Below are positions 1,261-13,408 of a stretch of DNA of 35,841 nucleotides, one piece after another. This DNA is from a virus. The notes under the pieces are model-generated. The model was not told the DNA's origin, made no database searches, and worked only from the letters and a program-made list of their open reading frames with translations. The stretch is from positions 1-35,841 of IMG/VR virus record IMGVR_UViG_3300045988_115891. The stretch is one strand, 5' to 3'. Position 1 is the stretch's first letter. Every line of letters begins with the position of its first letter. The translations under genes were made by a program, and so were the position numbers.

Positions 1261-1289
1261 TTGACAAACGCTTGGGTTTGTGATATAAT
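1261..1289 (+). promoter_or_regulatory. sigma-A type promoter TTGACA-17-TATAAT with an A-rich upstream tract; paralogue of the promoter at 30323
   Basis: TTGACA 1261..1266, 17-bp spacer, TATAAT 1284..1289. The 11-bp palindrome TCTATTATAGA at 1289..1299 overlaps the -10/+1 region. Confidence 0.8.
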
Positions 1290-1598: not shown

Positions 1599-1698
1599 GC
1601 TTGCTAACGCAGAACGACGCAGGGGCGAAAGCCCTTGTGGTAATGCGGCTAAGAACGGTCGTAAGCCCGTCAAGCAAGCATAAGAAAGGAGCGCTTTT

Positions 1699-4029: not shown

Positions 4030-4683
4030 ATGGCAACAACAAAAAAGGCAGAAGTAGTAGAGATTAAGCCTGTAGAGCTTAGAACAGTTATGTTAAAGAT
4101 AGTCGGCGACACGCCGCTGATAGTACACGCTTGGTCGGAGAAGGCAAAGCGTATGATGCTTGAAGCGCAGATGGGTCTTGCAAAGGGCAAGAAAAAGGAA
4201 GTCAAGAACCCTGTTGACGACTTTATCCAGTCGATGTACTGGCTGACCGACAAGCCCAAAGAAAGCACTGAGGAAGCTTTTATGCAGGCAATAAAGGGCG
4301 GAGCAAGGTTCGGCTTCCCTGCGACAGCGTTTAAGCAGTCGGCAATTTCAGCGGCATACAGGCTCGGATATGTTAAGGACAAGATGGGCTTAAGAGGAGC
4401 ATTCTTCATCAACGGCGATGAAAACGGTATGATTGAAATACATTCCGACACGCCGATTATGCGTGAGGATATGGTAAAAATCGGTATGGGTACAGCTGAC
4501 CTGCGTTATCGTGGCGAGTTCCGCAACTGGTGGGCTGAATTAAATATCAGCTACAATGCGAACGGCTCATTTTCGCTTGAAAACATTGTCAACATAATCA
4601 ACGCAGGAGGTTACGCTTGCGGTGTAGGTGAATGGCGTGTTGAAAAGGACGGTCAGAACGGTGCGTTTCACGTTGTAGGTTAA
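4030..4683 (+). CDS. conserved-looking phage protein of unknown function (217 aa)
   Basis: RBS AAGGAG and a non-repetitive globular sequence. I did not recognise any family. Confidence 0.6.
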   Translation: MATTKKAEVVEIKPVELRTVMLKIVGDTPLIVHAWSEKAKRMMLEAQMGLAKGKKKEVKNPVDDFIQSMYWLTDKPKESTEEAFMQAIKGGARFGFPATAFKQSAISAAYRLGYVKDKMGLRGAFFINGDENGMIEIHSDTPIMREDMVKIGMGTADLRYRGEFRNWWAELNISYNANGSFSLENIVNIINAGGYACGVGEWRVEKDGQNGAFHVVG

Positions 4684-4985
4684 TTTTTAGGTAGTCGTGG
4701 TTTGGCAGGTTAGGTGCGGCAAGGAGTGTTTGGGTGAGTTCCGTTAAGGCTCGGTTTGGCAGGTGGGGTTAGGCAAGGTGTGGCGAAGTTGGGTACGGTT
4801 TGGCAGGCATGGCAAGGCTCGTTCCGTTAAGGCTTGGCAAGGTTCGGCAGGTGGGGTCGGGTGAGGCAGGGTATGGCACGGAAAGGTTCGGCAGGTAAGG
4901 TCAGGTACGGTGAGGTCAGGTTGGGCATGGTGAGGCGGGCTCAGGTATGGCAGGCTCAGGTATGGCAGGCTTGGAAAGCCAAAAA
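4684..4985 (+). repeat. G+T-rich, C-poor degenerate repeat island (GGCAGG / GGCAAGG / AGGT motifs), non-coding
   Basis: I count 27 G vs 8 C in 4741..4800 and 28 G vs 8 C in 4861..4920, and 15 AGGT in total. GTTCCGTTAAGGCT occurs at 4738 and 4821. A 15-bp tandem GCTCAGGTATGGCAG occurs x2.3 at 4939..4971. Confidence 0.85.
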
Positions 4986-5004
4986 TCGAAAGGAGTTATT
5001 TTTT

Positions 5005-5484
5005 ATGGTCTACGAATGGAAAGATTTAGCGTCTGTGCGAAACATTAAGGCAGATGCACAGGTAGCAGGAGAAGTTTGCGAGGAACTGGAGCGAGAAGGG
5101 CGTTTAACGCCTGAAAATCTCGTTGAAGTGAGCAAAGACGAAAACGCACCGCTACATAACGAATTTGAATGGAATGATGCCACAGCGGCGAAGAAATACC
5201 GCCGTTCGCAAGCGCAGTTTATCATTCAAATGCTCGTTGTAAAATCGTCCGATGATGAGGAAGAAGAAAAGAAGCCGCCTGTAAGGGCGTTCTTCGCTAT
5301 CGACAGGGAACGCAGAAGTTATGAAAGTGTTGTGTCGATACTGGAAAGCAAGGATAAAACAGCTACTCTGCGTGAGCAGGTAGTTAAAGAACTTGCTTGC
5401 TTTTACGGCAAATATCAGGCAATTTTTGACGGCGATTTGGCGAAACTCGGCGAGGAGATACGCAATGTCATTACTCCCGATTGA
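5005..5484 (+). CDS. hypothetical protein (159 aa)
   Basis: ATG at 5005 is preceded by AAAGGAG (4989..4995). The upstream in-frame extension from 4834 is Arg/Gly/Trp low complexity read out of the repeat island. Confidence 0.65.
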   Translation: MVYEWKDLASVRNIKADAQVAGEVCEELEREGRLTPENLVEVSKDENAPLHNEFEWNDATAAKKYRRSQAQFIIQMLVVKSSDDEEEEKKPPVRAFFAIDRERRSYESVVSILESKDKTATLREQVVKELACFYGKYQAIFDGDLAKLGEEIRNVITPD

Positions 5485-5983
5485 GCAAGAGCAAGCTTTA
5501 GAAACGCTGACAATTCTTGTCGATACAAGGGAACACGAAACAGCCGAAGCAGTCCGTAGATGGTCTGCTTTTGGCAAGCCGTGGCGAAAAGAGAAGCTTG
5601 ACAGCGGAGATTATTCCGCAGAACTTCTCTTGCCGAGTGGCGAAACTTGGCGTGTGCCTTGCGTTATCGAAAGGAAAATGAATTTGTCGGAAATCTGCGG
5701 TAATTTTGGCACGAACCGAGGACGGTTTATCCGAGAATTTGAGCGGATAAAAGAAAGCGGCTTGAAATGCTATCTGCTGATAGAAAACGATAGTTGGGAA
5801 AATGCGTATGCAGGGCGATACAAGTCGCTGATGAAGCCGAAAGCCCTCATATCGAGTTTAACGGCGTGGTCGGCAAGATACAACGCTCATATCGTGTTTT
5901 GCAAAGACCGCACGACACCAAAATTGATAGCGGAGATATTGTACCGAGAAGCAAAGGAGATTTTGAAAAATGGCGATTGGTGA
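5465..5983 (+). CDS. ERCC4/Mus81-type structure-specific nuclease (putative junction resolvase)
   Basis: Motifs VDTREH, SGDY and IERK are in the order typical of ERCC4 nuclease domains. ATG at 5465 follows GAGGAG. Confidence 0.65.
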   Translation: MSLLPIEQEQALETLTILVDTREHETAEAVRRWSAFGKPWRKEKLDSGDYSAELLLPSGETWRVPCVIERKMNLSEICGNFGTNRGRFIREFERIKESGLKCYLLIENDSWENAYAGRYKSLMKPKALISSLTAWSARYNAHIVFCKDRTTPKLIAEILYREAKEILKNGDW

Positions 5984-6410
5984 TGAAAATAAATTTGACG
6001 GTGAAAAGGTAAGACTTGACCTTGTCGAGCCGAGCCTTATCGAAGCGATAGGCAAGGTTAGGACATATGGCATTAAAAAGTATACCGATGAACAGTCATG
6101 GAGAAAAGTCGAGAAGCCGAGATATGTAGCGGCGGCTATGCGACACTTTGAAGCGTATCGCAAGGGCGAAAGCAACGATGCCGAAAGCGGTATGCCGCAC
6201 TTATGGCATTGTGCTTGTAACCTTATGTTCCTCATCGAACTGGAAAAAGAACAGCAGGCAAAGCAGACTTTTAGTGACGGGTATGAACTCGACAACGAGG
6301 TAAAGTGCAAGCACTGCAAATATCACAGCGAAAAAACACAGCATTGCATACGCAAGGCGGAAGTCACAGACGATAACTATTCGTGCGGAATGGGAGTGTT
6401 GCGAAAATGA
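5970..6410 (+). CDS. dATP/dGTP diphosphohydrolase N-terminal-domain-like (DUF5664-like) protein with a C-terminal Cys cluster
   Basis: N-terminal pattern KFDGEKVRLDLVEP...KYTDEQSWRKV...AAMRHFEAY...ESGMPHLWHCACNLMFL matches my memory of this phage family. RBS AAGGAG. Confidence 0.5.
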   Translation: MAIGDENKFDGEKVRLDLVEPSLIEAIGKVRTYGIKKYTDEQSWRKVEKPRYVAAAMRHFEAYRKGESNDAESGMPHLWHCACNLMFLIELEKEQQAKQTFSDGYELDNEVKCKHCKYHSEKTQHCIRKAEVTDDNYSCGMGVLRK

Positions 6411-6584: not shown

Positions 6585-7190
6585 ATGGGAACGGTATTTA
6601 AAGACCGTGTTGCAAAAGGTCTGTGCGGTTACTGCGGAAAGGAAAATGATAATCTGCCGCTAACATACTGCAAAGCTTGCGCCGAAAAGCGAAGCCAACA
6701 ATACAAGGAGCGCAAAGAATATTGCGAGCGGCATGGTTGGTGTAATGTCTGCGGAAATCCCGAAAAAATGGAAAACGGGAAAATGTGCTATCACTGTTGG
6801 GAAGTCGCTTATAACGCTCGGCAGAAACGTAAAAAGCCTATGACGGACGAGCAACGGCAGAAAGTATATCAGCGAAACACGGCAAAAAGAAGACAAAACC
6901 TTAAAAACGGTCTTTGTTGGTATTGCGGCAAACGCAAGGTTCTTGACGGCAGGAGAGAGTGCATCGACTGCTATACGAAAAGGAAACGCAGGGCGGCGCT
7001 GATTTACGCAGAAACGAAAGCCAAAAATGCGGCAATTCGGGAGGAACGGCTAAAAAACCATTTATGCACGAAATGCGGTGAACCTGCAAAGGACGGATAT
7101 AAGGTCTGTGAGCGGCATTATCAGATAAGCATACAAAATCAGAAAAGAGCTAAAGAAGCAGTAAGAAAAATGCTTGACAAATGGGATTAA
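6585..7190 (+). CDS. protein built from four tandem CxxC...CxxC zinc-ribbon modules separated by Arg/Lys-rich linkers (201 aa)
   Basis: Modules: CGYCGK..CKAC, CNVCGN..CYHC, CWYCGK..CIDC, CTKCGE..CERH. Confidence 0.65.
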   Translation: MGTVFKDRVAKGLCGYCGKENDNLPLTYCKACAEKRSQQYKERKEYCERHGWCNVCGNPEKMENGKMCYHCWEVAYNARQKRKKPMTDEQRQKVYQRNTAKRRQNLKNGLCWYCGKRKVLDGRRECIDCYTKRKRRAALIYAETKAKNAAIREERLKNHLCTKCGEPAKDGYKVCERHYQISIQNQKRAKEAVRKMLDKWD

Positions 7191-7202
7191 ATGCGTTATA
7201 AT
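7174..7202 (+). promoter_or_regulatory. sigma-A type promoter TTGACA-17-TATAAT
   Basis: TTGACA 7174..7179, 17-bp spacer, TATAAT 7197..7202. Confidence 0.75.
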
Positions 7203-7947: not shown

Positions 7948-9403
7948 CCGCATACAGACTATCACCGCTCCCGAGCAGCTATTTGACACAGAGTTGCTTC
8001 TTGATGTGTTCGATGAGGGAAATCCGCCCGAAGAGCAGGCAAGAATTGTGTCTGTGATGAGCATAAAAGCAAGAATGCTCGGCGTGTACAAAGAGTTTGC
8101 GACAACGATAAAAGCGTTTCAGAAAGCGCAACAAAAGTTAGCTAACGAATATCAGCGGATAAATGCAAAGCAGAACGGCGGTATGATTTTAGACTTTGCG
8201 AGTGACGGAAAACCGCTTGCAACGATTGACAATTTTGTGCAGGTAATCGAAAACGACAGCAAGTTTGATAATCTGCGGTTTAATCTGCTGACAGAAAGCC
8301 CCGAAAAAATAATTGACGGCAAAGCGGAGCGTTGGACAGATGCGGACGATGCAGAATTACGGCGGTACATAGAAAAGAAGTATAAGTTCCACTCGGCGCA
8401 GAAAAGCGATGATGCGTTGAGGATAGTCCTCAAAGGTAGACAGTATCACCCGATAAGGCAGATGATAGACCGCTTTGAGTGGGACGGCGTAAGCAGGATA
8501 AACACATTCCTCACGAAATGGACGAAATGCGATGATAACGAGTATACACGAGAAGTATCACGTTTAATCTTTTCGGGCGGTATACATCGGCTGTATAATC
8601 CCGGCTGTAAATTTGACGATATGGCGGTTTTCATCGGCACAAGGCAGGGAGAAGGCAAGTCAACGCTGATACGGTGGTTAGCTTTAGACGATAAGTATTT
8701 TACAGAGGTTTCCGAGTTTGACGGTCAGAGGGGTATAGAAGCCCTTGAGGGAGCGTGGATTTGTGAAGTAGGTGAAATGCTTGCTATGGTAAAAGTACAG
8801 CAGCAGGAAGCGGTTAAAGCATATCTGACACGCATTAACGATAAGTACCGCAAGCCATTTGATAAGCGTGTGACAGAACACCCTCGGCAGTGTATCTTCA
8901 TCGGTACTACAAACAAAGCGCAGTTTCTCACTGACAAGACAGGCAACCGCAGATTTTACCCTGTTGTCGTACATCAATCGGGATATGACCTGTTTGAACA
9001 CGAAGAAGAAATCAAAGCAGATATAAAGCAGTGCTGGGCTGAAGCGTTGCACTTGTTCAAAGAAAACAAACTTCTGCCGTATGCCGACCGCAAACTGATT
9101 GATGTTATCCGCAAGGAACAGGCAAACGCTGTTGAAGATGATTACCGTATCGGTATGATTACCGAGTACTTGAATAGCAAGTCAGAGGTGTGTGTTTTGC
9201 AGATATGGCAACACGCTTTAAATATGGGCGAGTTTTCCAAGCCGACAAAAAAAGATAGTCAAGAAATCGGCTTGATAATGCAGAACCTTGAAAACTGGAA
9301 AAAACAGCCGTATCCGAAAACTTTCGCAGGGTTCGGCTCACAGCGTTGGTGGCGCAAAGAGGGCTGTGCGGACATAGATAGTTTTGATGATATAGACCTT
9401 TAA
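7934..9403 (+). CDS. VirE / D5-like primase-helicase (P-loop NTPase)
   Basis: Walker A GTRQGEGKST and a downstream FIGTTN...NRRFYPV pattern typical of VirE-family replication proteins. It is 489 aa and overlaps the upstream zinc-finger gene by 14 nt. Confidence 0.75.
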   Translation: MMDDNRIQTITAPEQLFDTELLLDVFDEGNPPEEQARIVSVMSIKARMLGVYKEFATTIKAFQKAQQKLANEYQRINAKQNGGMILDFASDGKPLATIDNFVQVIENDSKFDNLRFNLLTESPEKIIDGKAERWTDADDAELRRYIEKKYKFHSAQKSDDALRIVLKGRQYHPIRQMIDRFEWDGVSRINTFLTKWTKCDDNEYTREVSRLIFSGGIHRLYNPGCKFDDMAVFIGTRQGEGKSTLIRWLALDDKYFTEVSEFDGQRGIEALEGAWICEVGEMLAMVKVQQQEAVKAYLTRINDKYRKPFDKRVTEHPRQCIFIGTTNKAQFLTDKTGNRRFYPVVVHQSGYDLFEHEEEIKADIKQCWAEALHLFKENKLLPYADRKLIDVIRKEQANAVEDDYRIGMITEYLNSKSEVCVLQIWQHALNMGEFSKPTKKDSQEIGLIMQNLENWKKQPYPKTFAGFGSQRWWRKEGCADIDSFDDIDL

Positions 9404-9407
9404 CGGC

Positions 9408-9683
9408 GAAAATCACTACAAAGCACCCCGAAAATCTACTTTGTAGTGGACTTTGTAGAGGACTTAGTAGAGGTCACAAAACCGCTCTACAAAGCCATTT
9501 TCCCTTAGTTAAACTACAAACTCTACAATAAATTGAGTATTTATATAAAATAGGGAATAAAAAATAAAAATGTATTTTTATATTTTATGCAAACTTTGTA
9601 GAGTTTGTAGTGATTTTCCGAAAAACCGCATAGCAAAGCCAAAAACAAGCACTACAACGAAAAAACTACATTGTAGTTTGTAG
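9408..9683. repeat. array of CTACAAA / TTTGTAG heptamers with nested inverted repeats around a 67-bp A/T-rich core (candidate origin or operator array)
   Basis: CTACAAA-type heptamers at 9416, 9436, 9487, 9514, 9523, 9652 and 9666. TTTGTAG-type at 9440, 9452, 9464, 9595, 9604, 9670 and 9677. A perfect 12-bp IR pairs 9408..9419 with 9607..9618. Confidence 0.85.
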
Positions 9684-9700
9684 AGAAAGAAGCTGAAACA

Positions 9701-9904
9701 ATGGAACGTAAAGAATTTTTGCTGATATGTCAGAAAAATGCTATAAGCGGCGATGAGCTTGTAACGTATGACGGCGTGAAATACCGCCCGATAAGCTATG
9801 CAATACGTTTTGATAAGCTCGGCAAGGCAAAGCATACGGCAGTTTTGCACTCTGTGAAAGCCGATAGCATTTTAAACGTCAGCCTTGAAGATGTCGAGCC
9901 GTAA
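9701..9904 (+). CDS. hypothetical protein (67 aa)
   Basis: ORF-track ORF with a purine-rich RBS (AGAAAGAAG). Confidence 0.5.
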   Translation: MERKEFLLICQKNAISGDELVTYDGVKYRPISYAIRFDKLGKAKHTAVLHSVKADSILNVSLEDVEP

Positions 9905-9907
9905 ATC

Positions 9908-9936
9908 TTGACATTTTCTCGGCGAAACGGTATAAT
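9908..9936 (+). promoter_or_regulatory. sigma-A type promoter TTGACA-17-TATAAT
   Basis: TTGACA 9908..9913, 17-bp spacer, TATAAT 9931..9936. Confidence 0.75.
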
Positions 9937-9983
9937 AAAACTATGAAAAAAGACAAGAAGCGAGTGTCGAATAGGAGGAAACA

Positions 9984-10514
9984 TTGAAAATCACTGAAAT
10001 AAGCGTAAAGGATTTGAAGCCTTACGCTAAGAACACGAAGAAGCACGATAAAACGCAGATTGCAAACGTGGCAGAGAGTATCAAGCAGTACGGTTTTGTC
10101 CAGCCGATAGTCGTTGATAAGGATAACAGTATTGTCATCGGGCATTGCAGATATGAAGCGGCGAAGAAGCTGAAGCTTGAAACCGTTCCCTGCGTTTGCG
10201 TTGATGAACTGACAGACGAACAGATAAAGGCTCTGCGAATTGTTGACAACAAGAGTAACGAAAGCCCGTGGGATATGGAGTTTCTTGCAGACGAGCTTGC
10301 GGAAATTGATATGAACGAATTTGATTTTGATTTTGGAATTAATGCAGTTGATGAGAACGATATTCCAGATGTCGAAGAAAAAGAATTAAAGCCGTACAAG
10401 AAAGTGCATTATTTGATCACGCTTGACATAAACGAAAACGATAAAGTTATAGACTTGATAAAGCAGATTGAAAGCGTGGGGGGGGGCGTAGAAGTTGACA
10501 GTACACTCAATTAA
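9984..10514 (+). CDS. ParB-like N-terminal (ParBc/sulfiredoxin-fold) domain protein
   Basis: TTG start 5 nt after AGGAGG. The sequence ISVKDLKPYAKNTKKH...IKQYGFVQPIVVDKDNSIVIGHCRYEAA is the ParB N-domain pattern. No HTH is evident. Confidence 0.7.
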   Translation: MKITEISVKDLKPYAKNTKKHDKTQIANVAESIKQYGFVQPIVVDKDNSIVIGHCRYEAAKKLKLETVPCVCVDELTDEQIKALRIVDNKSNESPWDMEFLADELAEIDMNEFDFDFGINAVDENDIPDVEEKELKPYKKVHYLITLDINENDKVIDLIKQIESVGGGVEVDSTLN

Positions 10515-11040
10515 AACAGACAACGCAAACCTCTCTCACAAGGTGTATCTGCGCAGAAAAGCAACGAAAGGCTTAAAAGAACTTTGTGTGTTGGATTGCT
10601 TTGCAGGCGAAAATCGTATATGGGGTAACTTCGATTGCAAAAAGTATTACGGTATAGAAAAAGTTAAAGGCAAGGGTAAAAACTTAAACGCCGACAACGA
10701 AAGAGTTTTAAAAAGTTTAGATTTGTCAAAATTTAACGTGATAGATTTAGACAGCTATGGTATCCCGGTTGCAAGTTTTTTGAACATATTTGAAAATCCG
10801 ACACTGAAAAAAGGAACTGTGATTATTTACACTTGCATAGGGAACGCAATGTCAGCACTCCCGAAAGGCTTGGTAAAATCGTTTGGTCTTACAAAAATGT
10901 ATCCGAAATGCCCCTCGCTCTTTAACAAAAGAGGTCACGACTTGTTTTACGGTTTGCTTTATGAGTACGGCGTGAGAAAAGTAACTGAGTACCGTGCTGA
11001 TACCAGTTTTGAAAAAACTTACGGCTTCTTCGTTTTTTAG
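10495..11040 (+). CDS. small class-I SAM-methyltransferase-fold protein
   Basis: Motif I-like VLDCFAGEN and a TRM1-like VIDLDSYG motif. It has a TTG start and overlaps the ParB-like gene by 20 nt. Confidence 0.5.
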   Translation: MTVHSIKTDNANLSHKVYLRRKATKGLKELCVLDCFAGENRIWGNFDCKKYYGIEKVKGKGKNLNADNERVLKSLDLSKFNVIDLDSYGIPVASFLNIFENPTLKKGTVIIYTCIGNAMSALPKGLVKSFGLTKMYPKCPSLFNKRGHDLFYGLLYEYGVRKVTEYRADTSFEKTYGFFVF

Positions 11041-11050
11041 CTTAAAAGTG

Positions 11051-11079
11051 TTGACTTTTGTGCTAAATAGTGATATAAT
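11051..11079 (+). promoter_or_regulatory. sigma-A type promoter TTGACT-17-TATAAT
   Basis: TTGACT 11051..11056, 17-bp spacer, TATAAT 11074..11079. Confidence 0.7.
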
Positions 11080-11132
11080 AATAATGTAGCAGAAAGCTAC
11101 GAAAATCACATTGATTAAAGGAGAAAAAAGTT

Positions 11133-11915
11133 ATGTCGATGATTTATGAACCCGCAGGAAAAGCAAGAGAGTACAGTCCTCTCGCACTCAACGTTTATTT
11201 AGGTTGTAGTCACAAATGCGAGTATTGTTACGCAAATGCGATGGCAAGAAGGAACGGAAACAGTTGTTATTTTGGAAATCCAAGCCCAAGAGCAAAGGTT
11301 CTTGAAACGCTTCCGAAAGAGCTTAAAAAGTGCAAAAGAGAACAGGTGCTTCTTTCGTTTATCGGTGATGCTTATTGCGAAACAACAGACGATAACGCAC
11401 TTACACGTTCTGTTCTTGAAATGCTTCTTGAAGCTAAAATGCCCGTTGCAGTTCTTACAAAAGGTGGAAAGCGTTGCCTTAAAGACCTTGACCTTTTTAA
11501 GCGCTTCGGCGAGCATATTCAGATAGGCGCAACACTTACGTTTGATAATGACGCTGATTCGCTCAAGTGGGAAAGCGGTGCGGCACTCCCGTCAGAAAGA
11601 CTTGAAACGCTTAAGATTTTGCACGATAACGGAATTAGAACATTTGTAAGCTTTGAACCTGTTATCGTTCCCGAGCAGAGTTTGCGTCTTATGGAGCAAA
11701 GCCTTGATTTTGTAGATGTTTATAAGGTCGGAAAGCTTAACAACTACAGAGGTCTTGACAAAGCTATAAACTGGACTGATTTTCTTGAGAAAACAGTAAA
11801 GCTTTTAAGAGAAAACAAAAAATCATTTTATATCAAACACGATTTAAGACTTGCCGCTCCGACCGTTAGACTTTACGGAAACGAAGTCCTTGCGGACGAA
11901 CACAATGTCCAGTAA
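11133..11915 (+). CDS. radical SAM enzyme, spore-photoproduct-lyase/DNA-repair-photolyase-like (COG1533-type)
   Basis: N-terminal LNVYLGCSHKCEYCYA contains the CxxxCxxC cluster in the context typical of SplB-like radical SAM proteins. RBS AAAGGAG. Confidence 0.65.
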   Translation: MSMIYEPAGKAREYSPLALNVYLGCSHKCEYCYANAMARRNGNSCYFGNPSPRAKVLETLPKELKKCKREQVLLSFIGDAYCETTDDNALTRSVLEMLLEAKMPVAVLTKGGKRCLKDLDLFKRFGEHIQIGATLTFDNDADSLKWESGAALPSERLETLKILHDNGIRTFVSFEPVIVPEQSLRLMEQSLDFVDVYKVGKLNNYRGLDKAINWTDFLEKTVKLLRENKKSFYIKHDLRLAAPTVRLYGNEVLADEHNVQ

Positions 11916-11925
11916 ATTGTTTTAT

Positions 11926-11956
11926 AGCGGTGGGCTTATAGCCTGCCGCTTTTTTA
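11926..11956 (+). terminator. intrinsic terminator after the radical SAM gene
   Basis: 10-bp stem 11926..11935 / 11941..11950 (two G-U pairs), 5-nt loop, then TTTTT. Confidence 0.6.
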
Positions 11957-12108: not shown

Positions 12109-12453
12109 ATGCCAAATGCACAGAATTTAAAGCCAGGAGCTTACAAGCTGTCAAAGGAAGAAATGGCGAAAGGTGGAAGAAACTCACATAAAAAGATGAG
12201 GGAGCGAAAGCTCCTTCGTGAGTGCCTTTCCGAACTTTTGCAGATGGAATATGACACGAAGCAAGGAAAGAAACTCGGCAGTGAAATGTTGTCGGCGATG
12301 CTGATGAAAAAAGCGATGAGCGGAGACATCAAGGCTTTTGAGGTTCTCCGTGACACAGCAGGAGAAAAGCCAGTTGATAAAGTTATGGTCGCAGATGTTG
12401 AAAAGACTATCATTGACGAAGTGGAAAAAATGGTAAAAGATGAAACCGATTGA
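12109..12453 (+). CDS. putative terminase small subunit
   Basis: 114 aa with a basic N-terminus, upstream of TerL. RBS AAAGGAG. The call rests on position and general resemblance only. Confidence 0.45.
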   Translation: MPNAQNLKPGAYKLSKEEMAKGGRNSHKKMRERKLLRECLSELLQMEYDTKQGKKLGSEMLSAMLMKKAMSGDIKAFEVLRDTAGEKPVDKVMVADVEKTIIDEVEKMVKDETD

Positions 12454-13408
12454 ATTATGGCACGGTGATTGTCTTGAATTGATGAAAGATATTCCTGATG
12501 GCTCGGTGGATTTGGTGCTGACTGACCCGCCGTATGGCACTACAGCTTGCAAATGGGATAGCGTTATTCCTTTTGAGCCGATGTGGGAACAGTTGAAACG
12601 CATTGTAAAAAGAGGAGGTACAATTGTTCTCTTTGGTAGCGAGCCTTTTTCAAGCCTGTTAAGAGCAAGCAATATTGACTGGTACAAATACGACTGGATT
12701 TGGGAGAAAGAACAAAGTTCAGGCGGATTGCAAGCCAAAATTGCACCGATGAAAAAGCACGAAAATATAAGTGTGTTTTTTCAAACGCCAACAGACGATA
12801 CAACAAATGCCTATCAATCTTTGAAAGAGTATTTTCAGTCCGAAAAGAAAAAAAGCGGGTTAAACTCAAAACAAATTAAAGAGTTGCTCGGTAACTATAT
12901 GGCACGCCATTATTTCACAAATGGGTCGCAGTTTTGCATACCATCGGAAGAAAACTATAAAAAACTGCAAAGCACAGGATTTTTTCAGACTCCATTTGAA
13001 GAAATAAAAAAGCAATATAAAGAAGATTGCCAAAACACATACAATCCGCAAATGATGGTTGGTAAACCATACAAAGGTCATTTTGCACCAGGCGCAGAGG
13101 TGCATGGAAAGGCAACTCATTATGTAAAAGATAATGACGGCATAAGATACCCTACAAGCGTTTTAAGGTTTAATAGGGCAAAAAGGTTGCACCCAACACA
13201 AAAGCCAGTTGACTTGCTTGAATATCTTATCCGTACATACACTAATGAGGGAGAAACTGTCCTTGACTTCACAATGGGAAGCGGTAGCACTGGCGTCGCT
13301 TGCGTGAACACTAATCGCCGCTTTATCGGCATTGAACTTGATGAGGGATATTTCAACACCGCAAAAAAGAGGATTGAGGAAGCCTATGACAAGAGAACAA
13401 GCGGTTAA
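12440..13408 (+). CDS. beta-class N4/N6 DNA methyltransferase
   Basis: Motif IV DLVLTDPPYG lies near the N-terminus. HPTQKPVDLL and motif I FTMGSGSTGVAC lie near the C-terminus, the circular-permutation order of the N-4/N-6 MTase family. Confidence 0.85.
   Translation: MKPIELWHGDCLELMKDIPDGSVDLVLTDPPYGTTACKWDSVIPFEPMWEQLKRIVKRGGTIVLFGSEPFSSLLRASNIDWYKYDWIWEKEQSSGGLQAKIAPMKKHENISVFFQTPTDDTTNAYQSLKEYFQSEKKKSGLNSKQIKELLGNYMARHYFTNGSQFCIPSEENYKKLQSTGFFQTPFEEIKKQYKEDCQNTYNPQMMVGKPYKGHFAPGAEVHGKATHYVKDNDGIRYPTSVLRFNRAKRLHPTQKPVDLLEYLIRTYTNEGETVLDFTMGSGSTGVACVNTNRRFIGIELDEGYFNTAKKRIEEAYDKRTSG

What the first reader, a model, noticed from the sequence alone, without database searches (positions are those of the whole stretch)
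4684..4985. 300-bp G+T-rich, C-poor repeat island in the recombination module
- Between a 217-aa unknown gene and the next RBS lies a stretch whose + strand is strongly G>C. I count 27 G vs 8 C in 4741..4800 and 28 G vs 8 C in 4861..4920.
- It is built from degenerate short units: GGCAGG (8 copies), GGCAAGG (4 copies) and AGGT (15 copies).
- GTTCCGTTAAGGCT...GGCAGGTGGGGT is duplicated 83 bp apart (4738 and 4821).
- There is a 15-bp perfect tandem, GCTCAGGTATGGCAG, at 4939..4971.
- GG/GGG/GGGG runs recur about every 5-6 nt.
- Nothing else in the genome looks like this. It sits among recombination genes: the Sak4-like ATPase, the SSB-like protein and the ERCC4-type nuclease.
- Possible roles, all inference:
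  - a GT-rich recombination hotspot or Chi-like decoy array; RecA-family proteins prefer GT-rich ssDNA, and GGCAGGTGGGG resembles E. coli Chi (GCTGGTGG) in composition;
  - an R-loop or G-quadruplex-prone element priming replication, since it would be a G-rich non-template strand under + strand transcription;
  - a protein- or RNA-sponge transcript with multiple AGG(U) sites.
Basis: partly seen in the sequence, partly recalled or inferred. Interest (0 to 1): 0.72.

Follow-up and report, generated by a model that had tools for sequence, protein, structure and literature searches.

The report
Guide-RNA array of a phage VIPR system
The odd G-rich island is real, and is best read as the guide-RNA array of a VIPR system, a CRISPR-like RNA-guided DNA-silencing device of phages first described in 2026, so it is a new example of a known kind and not a recombination hotspot.

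Summary
Window 4684-4985 is the only strongly G>C stretch in the window, and it has a 5-nt period.

It is not tied to the recombination genes. It is a head-to-tail array of YNNGG pentamers: five units of 9-11 pentamers, each starting (G)CAGG and sharing 1 nt with the previous unit.

- **Upstream gene (4030-4683):** a Vipr protein. It matches the solved SUSP1 Vipr (profile E 2e-11). Its predicted fold matches only Cas7/Csm3 RAMPs. The residues that grip GGY in SUSP1 are kept.
- **Downstream gene (5005-5484):** it follows a Vipr homologue in 49 of 49 related loci from Clostridia, Mycobacterium, Gordonia and cyanobacterial phages. Sak4 and ERCC4 co-occur only in close relatives.
- **Array variation:** phages whose Vipr is 97-99% identical carry different units and different unit numbers. 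GGY is fixed and NN is variable.

This matches the VIPR system of two 2026 bioRxiv preprints. There, Vipr polymerises on GGY and the NN dinucleotides pair with dsDNA, skipping every third base, to silence rival phages.

Expression, processing and natural targets could not be shown here. My target scans gave only chance-level hits.

Verdict: a new member of a known kind.

The parts
1261..1289 (+). Nearest strong sigma-70-type promoter-like site (TTGACA-17-TATAAT with TG). It is the likely start of the early operon that carries the module. Context only, inferred.
   Evidence: 12/12 match. No comparable + strand promoter and no + strand terminator-like site lies between it and the island.
4030..4683 (+). 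vipr gene: a 217-aa RAMP (Cas7-like) protein, predicted to polymerise on the GGY motifs of the array RNA.
   Evidence: PDB 36pp_D 'SUSP1 Vipr protein': E 3.3e-4 for the single sequence and 2.1e-11 for the profile. AF2 pLDDT 79.5 and pTM 0.74. The top 50 Foldseek PDB hits are all Csm3/Cmr/Cas7 RAMPs, best E 2.9e-5. phrog_4652; no Pfam, NCBIfam or PADLOC match.
4684..4704 (+). Array leader (TTTTTAGGTAGTCGTGGTTTG). Conserved in close relatives, ahead of the first (G)CAGG mark.
   Evidence: the same leader 'taattt TTAGG tagt CGTGG T..GG CAGG' appears in L015, L016 and L017.
4705..4759 (+). vrRNA unit 1: 11 pentamers (GCAGG TTAGG TGCGG CAAGG agtgt TTGGG tgagt tccgt TAAGG CTCGG TTTGG). Shared with relatives.
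   Evidence: It is 88-95% identical to units in L022, L017 and L016.
4759..4803 (+). vrRNA unit 2: 9 pentamers, overlapping unit 1 by 1 nt. No counterpart among the related loci.
   Evidence: The best relative is 69% identical, which is the baseline set by the shared GGY skeleton.
4803..4847 (+). vrRNA unit 3: 9 pentamers. Shared with relatives and contains the recurrent GTTCCGTTAAGGCT motif.
   Evidence: It is 98% identical to an L015 unit and 91% to an L014 unit.
4847..4891 (+). vrRNA unit 4: 9 pentamers, all but one (AAAGG) canonical YNNGG. No counterpart among the related loci.
4891..4935 (+). vrRNA unit 5: 9 canonical pentamers. No counterpart among the related loci.
4935..4965 (+). Two short 15-nt units (GCGGG/GCAGG CTCAGG TATGG). 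Probably truncated or degenerate units.
4965..4985 (+). Array trailer: the last (G)CAGG, then a small hairpin (GGCTT 4968-4972, loop GGA, AAGCC 4976-4980), then an A-run. A possible 3' tail or cap of the array.
   Evidence: -5.3 kcal/mol. Comparable short hairpins follow the last CAGG in 9 further loci, 4 of them with different stem sequences (L035, L036, L037, L039). A formal covariation test failed.
4992..4995 (+). RBS (GGAG) of the downstream gene, 9 nt before the ATG at 5005.
   Evidence: It is conserved together with the MVYEWK start in relatives.
5005..5484 (+). Candidate vap (Vipr-accessory protein): 159 aa, with conserved PLHNEFEW...AA..YR..QA. Function unknown.
   Evidence: It lies directly downstream of a vipr homologue in 49/49 loci. 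It is 32% identical to Gordonia phage Ecliptus gp20. phrog_15946, no Pfam. AF2 pLDDT 89.5. No PDB fold neighbour. Only uncharacterised viral proteins match in BFVD. Not similar to the vap1 of the SUSP1-type locus.

Best explanation
Window 4030-5484 is a VIPR (Viral Interference Programmable Repeat) locus, and the island 4684-4985 is its vrRNA array.

**Shown here**
- The island is a head-to-tail ('staggered') array of YNNGG pentamers on the coding strand.
- It lies between a Vipr-family RAMP gene and a strictly co-occurring accessory gene.
- Across relatives GGY is fixed, NN is variable, and whole units are swapped, gained or lost.

**Inferred from the two VIPR preprints (homology, not tested here)**
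- The array is transcribed with the early operon and cut into guides of about 45-55 nt (9-11 pentamers).
- One Vipr protomer binds each pentamer. It flips out and sequesters GGY, and presents the NN dinucleotides.
- The NN dinucleotides pair with a double-stranded DNA target in which every third base is skipped.
- The bound filament blocks transcription of a competing phage or prophage.
- The 159-aa partner probably enhances this, as vap1 does in the SUSP1 system.
For: **Repeat anatomy**
- The period is 5, with a 1-nt slip every 44 nt.
- Across related loci, 190 of 237 spacings between GGCAG[G/T] marks equal 5k-1, most often 49, 59, 54 or 44 nt.
- In 124 unique units, position 1 is C/T in 94%. 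Positions 2 and 3 carry 1.83 and 1.88 bits. Position 4 is G in 96% and position 5 is G in 83%.

**Protein**
- The profile of the 217-aa family hits PDB 36pp_D 'SUSP1 Vipr protein' at E 2.1e-11. The pairwise comparison with the Felixounavirus Vipr gives E 3e-8.
- The AF2 model (pLDDT 79.5) matches only Csm3/Cmr/Cas7 RAMPs in its top 50 PDB hits.
- The SUSP1 residues that contact GGY are H17, R138, C173, D177, W178 and R179 (paper). They align to H33, R161, C197, E201, W202 and R203. Of these, H33, R161, E201, W202 and R203 are invariant or nearly so in the family; C197 is not.

**Linkage**
- 38 of 44 metagenomic or MAG relatives have a same-strand period-5 GG island next to vipr. Five of the other six have a degenerate YNNGK version.
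- The same holds in Gordonia phages Ecliptus and Pipp, cyanophage Cy-LDV1 and Mycobacterium phage Saal.
- The partner gene is adjacent in 49/49 loci.

**Guide-like behaviour**
- Phages with 97-99% identical Vipr carry different arrays, ranging from 1 to about 9 units.
- Three of the five window units have no counterpart elsewhere.
- No self-target exceeds shuffled controls.
- The RNA is no more structured than shuffles, z +0.31.

**Literature**
- bioRxiv 10.64898/2026.04.26.720920 defines VIPR as Vipr plus vrRNAs of 9-16 YNNGG repeats plus vap. It describes staggered arrays with a 1-nt overlap.
- bioRxiv 10.64898/2026.04.26.720927 gives the filament and triplex mechanism.
Against: - No expression, processing or binding data exist for this locus.
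- No natural target was found. 16-base NNx patterns for units 2, 4 and 5 gave 16, 5 and 27 hits scattered over unrelated contigs. None came from a contig hit by a second unit.
- The 20-base pattern of unit 1 hit one gene family, an SF1 helicase in phage contigs of about 31% GC whose nearest isolates are aquatic phages. The skipped bases fall on wobble positions. My estimate is about 0.1 hits by chance, and the ecology does not fit a Clostridia phage.
- Two long units from relatives (22 and 24 specified bases) gave 0 hits.
- The one-base-skip rule was established for type II and applied to types III and V. It was not established for this clade.
- Guides of 9 pentamers specify only 16-18 bases.
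- The accessory protein is not homologous to vap1, and its type (I or III-VII) could not be assigned.
- D177 of SUSP1 is E here. The H17/H33 match rests on a weak alignment segment.
Confidence: 0.88

Rival explanations
1. It is a decoy or degenerate array. The transcript carries Vipr-binding GGY repeats but no longer guides anything. It might titrate the Vipr of a rival phage (anti-VIPR) or be a decaying remnant.
For: No natural target was found for any unit. The array includes degenerate pentamers (agtgt, tgagt, tccgt, cgaag, ctcgt) and two truncated 15-nt units. [quoted passage not shown]
Against: The vipr and partner genes are intact and conserved. Unit length and the 5k-1 punctuation are maintained across the clade. 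The preprint notes that internal degeneracy is common in working vrRNAs. My searches required exact matches, whereas the authors accept 80% or more.
Confidence: 0.05
2. It acts at the DNA level as an iteron-like origin or a protein-binding array on double-stranded DNA.
For: It has regularly spaced repeats (44 nt, roughly four helical turns) in an intergenic gap of the early/replication region.
Against: The basic period is 5 nt and strictly strand-asymmetric. There are no inverted repeats and no adjacent AT-rich stretch (GC 0.57). The module also sits in a tail-gene cluster in Gordonia phage Ecliptus and next to immunity or integration genes in other phages. The constant partner is a RAMP RNA-binding fold, not an initiator.
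Confidence: 0.03
3. It is a G-quadruplex or R-loop-prone element that works through nucleic-acid structure alone.
For: It has dense GG runs on the non-template strand and a GC skew of 0.52.
Against: Only 8 runs of 3 or more G exist. Selection keeps a pyrimidine after GG and a strict 5-nt phase, which G4 formation does not need. The element co-varies with a specific protein pair.
Confidence: 0.02
4. It is a Chi-like recombination hotspot or decoy array serving the Sak4/SSB/ERCC4 module.
For: It is GT-rich and lies among recombination genes in this phage.
Against: No E. coli, L. lactis, B. subtilis or S. aureus Chi sequence occurs in the island. Sak4 is present in only 5 and ERCC4 in only 2 of 49 loci that carry the island module.
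Confidence: 0.01
5. It is translated as an N-terminal extension of the 5005 gene, via the TTG ORF 4834-5484.
For: The frame is open for 174 nt upstream of the ATG. Gene callers often extend the homologues: six of the closest ones, P0241-P0244, P0246 and P0247, are 188-268 aa.
Against: The period is 5, not 3. The open upstream stretch varies from 66 to 396 nt among relatives. The RBS plus the MVYEWK start are conserved, while the upstream sequence is replaced wholesale.
Confidence: 0.01

Closest known systems
VIPR type II (Escherichia phage SUSP1 and other Felixounaviruses; bioRxiv 10.64898/2026.04.26.720920 and .720927)
   Same: Both have a small Vipr RAMP protein with the C-G-V-G-[D/E]-W-R G-loop and the thumb arginine. 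Both have YNNGG (GGY/NN) repeats on the coding strand next to vipr, a two-gene vipr-plus-accessory operon, and a phage-encoded early-region location.
   Different: In the Felixounavirus Alf5 locus each vrRNA is a separate unit with its own conserved leader, 11-17 pentamers and a long conserved 3' tail. One vrRNA region lies upstream and one downstream of the genes. Here the units abut head to tail with a 1-nt overlap and no tail between them, and lie between the two genes. The accessory protein shows no significant similarity to vap1. The Vipr proteins align only over the C-terminal third, at 33% identity.
'Staggered vrRNA arrays' of the same preprint (legend of fig. S18)
   Same: Individual vrRNAs start at positions overlapping by 1 nt, so the end of one marks the start of the next. 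This matches the 5k-1 spacing seen here.
   Different: The figure and the type assignment are not available to me. I cannot say whether this clade, or its (G)CAGG punctuation, is the one the authors illustrate.
Class 1 CRISPR backbone subunits (Csm3/Cmr4/Cas7) on crRNA
   Same: They share the RAMP fold. One protomer binds per fixed-length RNA segment, and a thumb periodically breaks the guide-target duplex.
   Different: The register is 5 nt, with three bases sequestered and two read. The window has no CRISPR repeat-spacer array, no cas1/cas2 and no other Cas domains. The guide information is non-contiguous.
TRAP bound to (G/U)AG repeats in the trp leader (analogy from my own knowledge, not tested)
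   Same: A protein oligomer reads a short triplet repeated about every 5 nt along an otherwise unstructured RNA.
   Different: TRAP is a closed ring that regulates its own mRNA. It does not use the spacer bases to recognise DNA, and its fold is unrelated.

Membership tests
VIPR system | A Vipr protein with the RAMP fold (RRM core, G-loop, thumb) | tested here: met
   The AF2 model has pLDDT 79.5. All of the top 50 Foldseek PDB hits are Csm3/Cmr/Cas7 RAMPs, best E 2.9e-5, probability 1.00.
VIPR system | Sequence homology to an experimentally characterised Vipr | tested here: met
   PDB 36pp_D 'SUSP1 Vipr protein': E 3.3e-4 for the single sequence and 2.1e-11 for the profile. Pairwise with the Alf5 Vipr: E 3e-8. 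Only the C-terminal third aligns.
VIPR system | Conservation of the residues that recognise GGY (SUSP1 H17, R138, C173, D177, W178, R179) | tested here: met
   They align to H33, R161, C197, E201 (D to E), W202 and R203. R161 and R203 are invariant in 23 diverse homologues. H33 and E201 are at least 90% conserved there, and both are invariant in the 38-sequence alignment. The H17/H33 pairing comes from a weak alignment segment.
VIPR system | Tandem YNNGG repeats next to vipr (at least 4, typically 9-16 per vrRNA) | tested here: met
   There are five units of 11, 9, 9, 9 and 9 pentamers plus short terminal units. The lag-5 autocorrelation is 0.49.
VIPR system | GGY conserved and NN hypervariable among related systems | tested here: met
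   124 unique units: Y 94%, G 96%, G 83%; NN positions carry 1.83 and 1.88 bits. Arrays differ between phages with 97-99% identical Vipr.
VIPR system | A minimal vipr + vap operon without a CRISPR array or cas genes, mostly in phages | tested here: met
   The partner gene is adjacent in 49/49 loci. No Cas or defence-family hits. The window encodes a portal, a primase zinc finger, VapE and Sak4. Whether the partner belongs to one of vap1-6 could not be checked.
VIPR system | vrRNAs are expressed, processed and co-purify with Vipr | not testable with these tools
   This needs small-RNA sequencing and a pull-down. The only indirect points are the same strand as the operon, no nearer promoter or terminator and no stable fold.
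VIPR system | NN dinucleotides match natural targets under the one-base-skip rule, converging on rival mobile elements | tested here: inconclusive
   Local search: skip 1 is no better than skips 0, 2 or 3. Viral-contig scans gave chance-level hits with no convergence. One 20-base hit in a helicase gene is wobble-phased but ecologically implausible.
VIPR system | No self-targeting | tested here: met
   The best self-matches are 70-81% of NN positions and are not above order-shuffled controls.
VIPR system | A conserved structured 3' tail after the repeat tract | tested here: inconclusive
   There is no tail between units. A 5-bp hairpin follows the last CAGG here, and comparable hairpins with different stems occur in relatives. 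The alignment-based test gave no consensus.
VIPR type II (SUSP1-like) | Discrete vrRNAs, each with its own leader and long conserved tail; vap1 accessory gene | tested here: not met
   The Alf5 locus shows that architecture. The window array is contiguous, and the partner protein is unrelated to vap1 (E 0.018 over 25 residues).
Staggered vrRNA array variant | Successive vrRNAs overlap by 1 nt | tested here: met
   Unit starts at 4705, 4759, 4803, 4847 and 4891 each share one G with the previous unit. 190 of 237 mark-to-mark spacings in the clade are 4 mod 5.
CRISPR-Cas | A repeat-spacer array with 25-40-nt repeats plus cas genes | tested here: not met
   No such repeats were found. No Cas domains in Pfam, NCBIfam or PADLOC.
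Chi / recombination hotspot | Copies of a host Chi octamer or pentamer in a fixed orientation | tested here: not met
   None of the four Chi sequences tested occurs in the island. The host's own Chi sequence is unknown.
Described RNA families (Rfam 15) | A match to a curated covariance model | tested here: not met
   No gathering-score hit falls in the island. The only matches at E up to 10 are spurious lncRNA hits at 12.5 and 7.8 bits.

The most novel reading that the evidence does not exclude
This clade, spread across Clostridia, Actinobacteria and cyanobacterial phages, may be a VIPR type whose short abutting guides (9-13 pentamers) behave like exchangeable cassettes. Near-identical phages differ in unit number (1 to about 9) and content between a fixed leader and trailer. 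Some units are shared in different positions and others are unique. That would imply an active way of gaining or swapping guides, by recombination between arrays or by true acquisition, which the preprints do not describe. The universally linked 159-aa partner, with no known fold, would be a candidate player.
Probability: 0.2. Interest if true: 0.7.

Novelty: new member of a known kind. Interest (0 to 1): 0.45.

Why it matters
VIPR is a months-old discovery: RNA-guided DNA recognition through a gapped code, proposed as the ancestor of the CRISPR RAMPs.

- **Wider host range.** This locus places the system in a phage of gut Clostridia; the MAG relatives are Acutalibacteraceae and Oscillospiraceae.
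- **Existing isolates carry it.** The same three-part module sits unannotated or mis-annotated in well-studied Mycobacterium (Cheoctovirus) and Gordonia phages. That gives tractable hosts for testing the staggered-array type.
- **Practical point for annotators.** The array is called as a CDS (Pipp gp43) or as an N-terminal extension of the next gene.
- **Guide turnover.** The cassette differences between near-identical phages give a natural data set for asking how vrRNA repertoires change.

Tried and rejected
- **Rfam.** At gathering and at permissive thresholds, nothing real matched in the island.
- **Family libraries.** Pfam, NCBIfam and PADLOC gave nothing for either flanking protein. PHROGs gave only unknown-function families.
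- **RNA folding.** The island is no more stable than shuffles, so I dropped the structured-ncRNA idea.
- **Local target search.** 184 unique units, under skip 0-3 rules, were searched against the window and 49 loci. No rule stood out, and the database is too small.
- **Viral-contig scans with NNx patterns.**
  - Units 4, 5 and 2 (16 bases) gave 5, 27 and 16 hits.
  - Clusters of identical context also occur among the clearly random hits, so clustering is not evidence of a true target.
  - Unit 1 (20 bases) gave one helicase family in contigs of about 31% GC. I judged it probably chance.
  - Two long units from L047 and L035 gave 0 hits.
- **The constant CA.** Including the CA of (G)CAGG gave one 18/18 match (L071), about what chance predicts. 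No other window unit matched L071 above background.
- **Partner protein.** Fold search found no PDB neighbour and only uncharacterised viral proteins. Profile against PDB sequences found nothing.
- **Trailer hairpin.** RNAalifold failed because MAFFT did not gap the variable loops.
- **VIPR type.** I could not assign type I or III-VII. The preprint's supplementary tables and figures are not held.

Full report
**1. The observation**

- G vs C is 27 vs 8 and 28 vs 8 in the two 60-nt stretches.
- GGCAGG occurs 8 times, GGCAAGG 4 times and AGGT 15 times. The 15-nt tandem is present.
- The 302-nt island holds 131 G and 43 C. Its GC skew of 0.52 is the extreme of the window, whose mean is 0.145 with sd 0.10.
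- The claimed 83-bp duplication is imperfect. Only GTTCCGTTAAGGCT is in register.

The key refinement is periodicity.
- GG positions autocorrelate at lag 5 (0.49) and at its multiples, with a second peak at lag 44 (0.43).
- GGTT[T/C]GGCAGG recurs at 4699, 4753, 4797, 4841 and 4885.
- A period-5 detector finds no other such stretch on either strand of the 35.8-kb window.

**2. Anatomy**

The island tiles almost completely into YNNGG pentamers. It is punctuated by a 4-nt CAGG that shares its preceding G with the previous pentamer.
- This defines five units starting at 4705, 4759, 4803, 4847 and 4891. They have 11, 9, 9, 9 and 9 pentamers, and each overlaps the previous unit by 1 nt.
- Two truncated 15-nt units follow (4935-4965).
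- A final CAGG is followed by a 5-bp hairpin (4968-4980), an A-run and the RBS of the next gene.
- As RNA the island is no more stable than dinucleotide shuffles, z +0.31.
- It matches no Rfam family.
- The nearest strong promoter-like site is a perfect TTGACA-17-TATAAT at 1261-1289. No + strand terminator-like site lies between it and the island.

**3. What travels with it**

A blastn search unexpectedly matched the island to an unannotated gap in Gordonia phage Ecliptus. There the gap is flanked by homologues of both window neighbours, at 40% and 32% identity.

The same three parts occur in other phages.
- Gordonia phage Pipp, where the array is annotated as CDS 43.
- Cyanophage Cy-LDV1.
- Mycobacterium phage Saal, where the array lies upstream of the first gene.

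Scans of genome and viral contigs gave 44 further loci. Their Vipr proteins are 29-99% identical to the window's. The named MAG hosts are mostly Clostridia: Acutalibacteraceae, Oscillospiraceae and Lachnospiraceae.
- 38 of the 44 have a same-strand period-5 GG island next to the gene.
- Five of the remaining six have a degenerate YNNGK version punctuated by CAGT.
- The 159-aa gene follows the 217-aa gene in 49 of 49 loci.
- Sak4 is present in 5 and ERCC4 in 2, all close relatives.

The island therefore belongs to a two-gene module, not to the recombination genes.

**4. Identity of the proteins**

The 217-aa protein:
- It has no Pfam, NCBIfam or PADLOC match.
- It hits PDB 36pp_D, 'SUSP1 Vipr protein', at E 3.3e-4. 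A profile of 23 homologues hits the same chain at E 2.1e-11.
- An AF2 model (pLDDT 79.5, pTM 0.74) matches only CRISPR RAMP backbone subunits (Csm3, Cmr, Cas7) in its top 50 PDB neighbours.

The 159-aa protein:
- It models well (pLDDT 89.5).
- It has no solved structural neighbour. Only uncharacterised viral proteins are similar.

**5. The known system**

A full-text search for 'Vipr' found two 2026 bioRxiv preprints.

The first is 10.64898/2026.04.26.720920.
- It defines VIPR as a Vipr RAMP protein, vrRNAs of 9-16 YNNGG repeats (conserved GGY, hypervariable NN) and an accessory vap gene, mostly in phages.
- It shows that the NN dinucleotides pair with double-stranded DNA with one skipped base per repeat, and that binding silences transcription.
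- Natural targets are rival phages, satellites and prophages.
- Seven types exist. They include 'staggered arrays' whose vrRNAs overlap by 1 nt.

The second is 10.64898/2026.04.26.720927.
- One Vipr protomer binds per repeat, in a helical filament.
- H17, R138, C173, D177, W178 and R179 grip GGY.
- These align to H33, R161, C197, E201, W202 and R203 in the window protein. H33, R161, E201, W202 and R203 are invariant or nearly so in the family; C197 is not.

**6. Tests of the guide reading**
- Across 124 unique units of the clade, pentamer position 1 is C/T in 94%. Positions 2 and 3 carry 1.83 and 1.88 bits. Positions 4 and 5 are G in 96% and 83%.
- 190 of 237 spacings between punctuation marks are 5k-1.
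- Phages whose Vipr is 97-99% identical to the window's (L014-L016) share the leader and trailer but carry different units. More distant relatives have from 1 to about 9 units.
- Window units 1 and 3 recur in relatives at 88-98% identity. Units 2, 4 and 5 have no counterpart.
- No unit matches the phage's own genome better than order-shuffled controls.

**7. What I could not show**

I found no natural targets.
- The local search was uninformative.
- Exact NNx scans of the viral collection for units 4, 5 and 2 gave 5, 27 and 16 hits from unrelated environments, with no contig hit twice.
- The 20-base pattern of unit 1 hit one family. It is an SF1 helicase gene next to a primase-polymerase-like gene in contigs of about 31% GC. 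The skipped bases fall exactly on codon third positions, and a diverged copy still matches.
- Its nearest isolates are aquatic phages. I estimate about 0.1 chance hits for that pattern, and I ran several patterns. I therefore do not claim it as a target.
- Two long units from relatives gave no hits.
- Expression, processing sites and the role of the 159-aa protein are inferred, not tested.

**8. Comparison and verdict**

The locus meets the sequence-testable defining features of VIPR. It is not type II.
- In a Felixounavirus locus each vrRNA has its own leader and a long tail. Its vap1 is unrelated to the window's partner protein.
- The abutting, 1-nt-overlapping architecture matches the 'staggered array' variant mentioned in the preprint. 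The type number could not be assigned because the supplementary material is not held.

The rival readings are poorly supported.
- Chi-like array: no Chi motifs.
- G-quadruplex or R-loop element: few G-runs of 3 or more, and a selected pyrimidine after GG.
- Iteron origin: strand-asymmetric 5-nt period, no inverted repeats and variable genomic context.
- N-terminal extension of the next gene: period 5, and a variable upstream open frame.

The finding is real and well spotted. It is a new member of a recently described kind.

Noticed in passing
window 1608-1670 (+); also L016 558-620: A type-P5 twister ribozyme (RF02684) scores 48.1 bits against a gathering score of 37.6. It lies between two small early ORFs, about 3 kb upstream of the array. 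The same ribozyme is present in one close relative at 50.6 bits. It does not adjoin any pentamer repeats, so it does not look like the ribozyme-interspersed vrRNA arrays mentioned in the preprint.
   Followed up: partly
L002 3114-3383 (Gordonia phage Pipp gp43); L003 2339-2485 (Mycobacterium phage Saal gp51 start); proteins P0241-P0244, P0246, P0247: Public annotations treat the array as coding. Pipp gp43 lies wholly inside the pentamer array. Saal gp51 is annotated from a start about 150 nt upstream of the start implied by the homology, reaching back to the 3' edge of the pentamer array. Gene callers extend the 159-aa partner N-terminally to 188-268 aa.
   Followed up: partly
L001 (Gordonia phage Ecliptus, record 9099-11950): In Ecliptus, and apparently ODay, the VIPR module lies with two HTH genes between the tail assembly chaperone and the tape measure gene. 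That is an unusual insertion site for an early-type cassette.
   Followed up: no
L098 5411-5439, L099, L100, L101 1997-2025: The unit 1 NNx pattern (20 specified bases) matches a conserved YAKVCDPKSF stretch of an SF1 helicase gene in four phage contigs of about 31% GC. Every skipped base falls on a codon third position, and a diverged copy still matches. I judged it probably chance because of the ecological mismatch, but it is the only wobble-phased hit found.
   Followed up: partly
window 4738-4751 and 4821-4834; relatives' first or last units: The motif GTTCCGTTAAGGCT (degenerate pentamers ..GT TCCGT TAAGG) recurs in units 1 and 3, and in the first or last unit of many related arrays. It is much more conserved than other unit content. 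It could be a shared target or a processing or assembly signal.
   Followed up: partly
L011, L030, L038, L042, L043 (gap between the vipr and partner genes): A sub-clade uses CAGT instead of CAGG as punctuation, and many YNNGT pentamers. That is a degenerate consensus in which G still has a 5-nt period, with autocorrelation 0.25-0.35.
   Followed up: partly
window 5970-6410, 11133-11915, 12440-13408: There are genes for a dATP/dGTP diphosphohydrolase N-terminal domain protein (PF18909), a radical SAM protein and an N6/N4 DNA methylase. These hint at nucleotide-pool or DNA-modification functions in this phage.
   Followed up: no
window 9438-9473, within the AT-rich gap around 9404-9980: Three copies of a 12-nt tandem repeat (ACTTTGTAGAGG) lie in the lowest-GC stretch of the early region (GC 0.31), just after the VapE-like primase/helicase gene. 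This is a more conventional candidate for an origin or regulatory site.
   Followed up: no
window 1261-1289 and 7174-7202 (+): Two perfect sigma-70 consensus promoters (TTGACA-17-TATAAT) sit at the starts of two + strand gene blocks.
   Followed up: no
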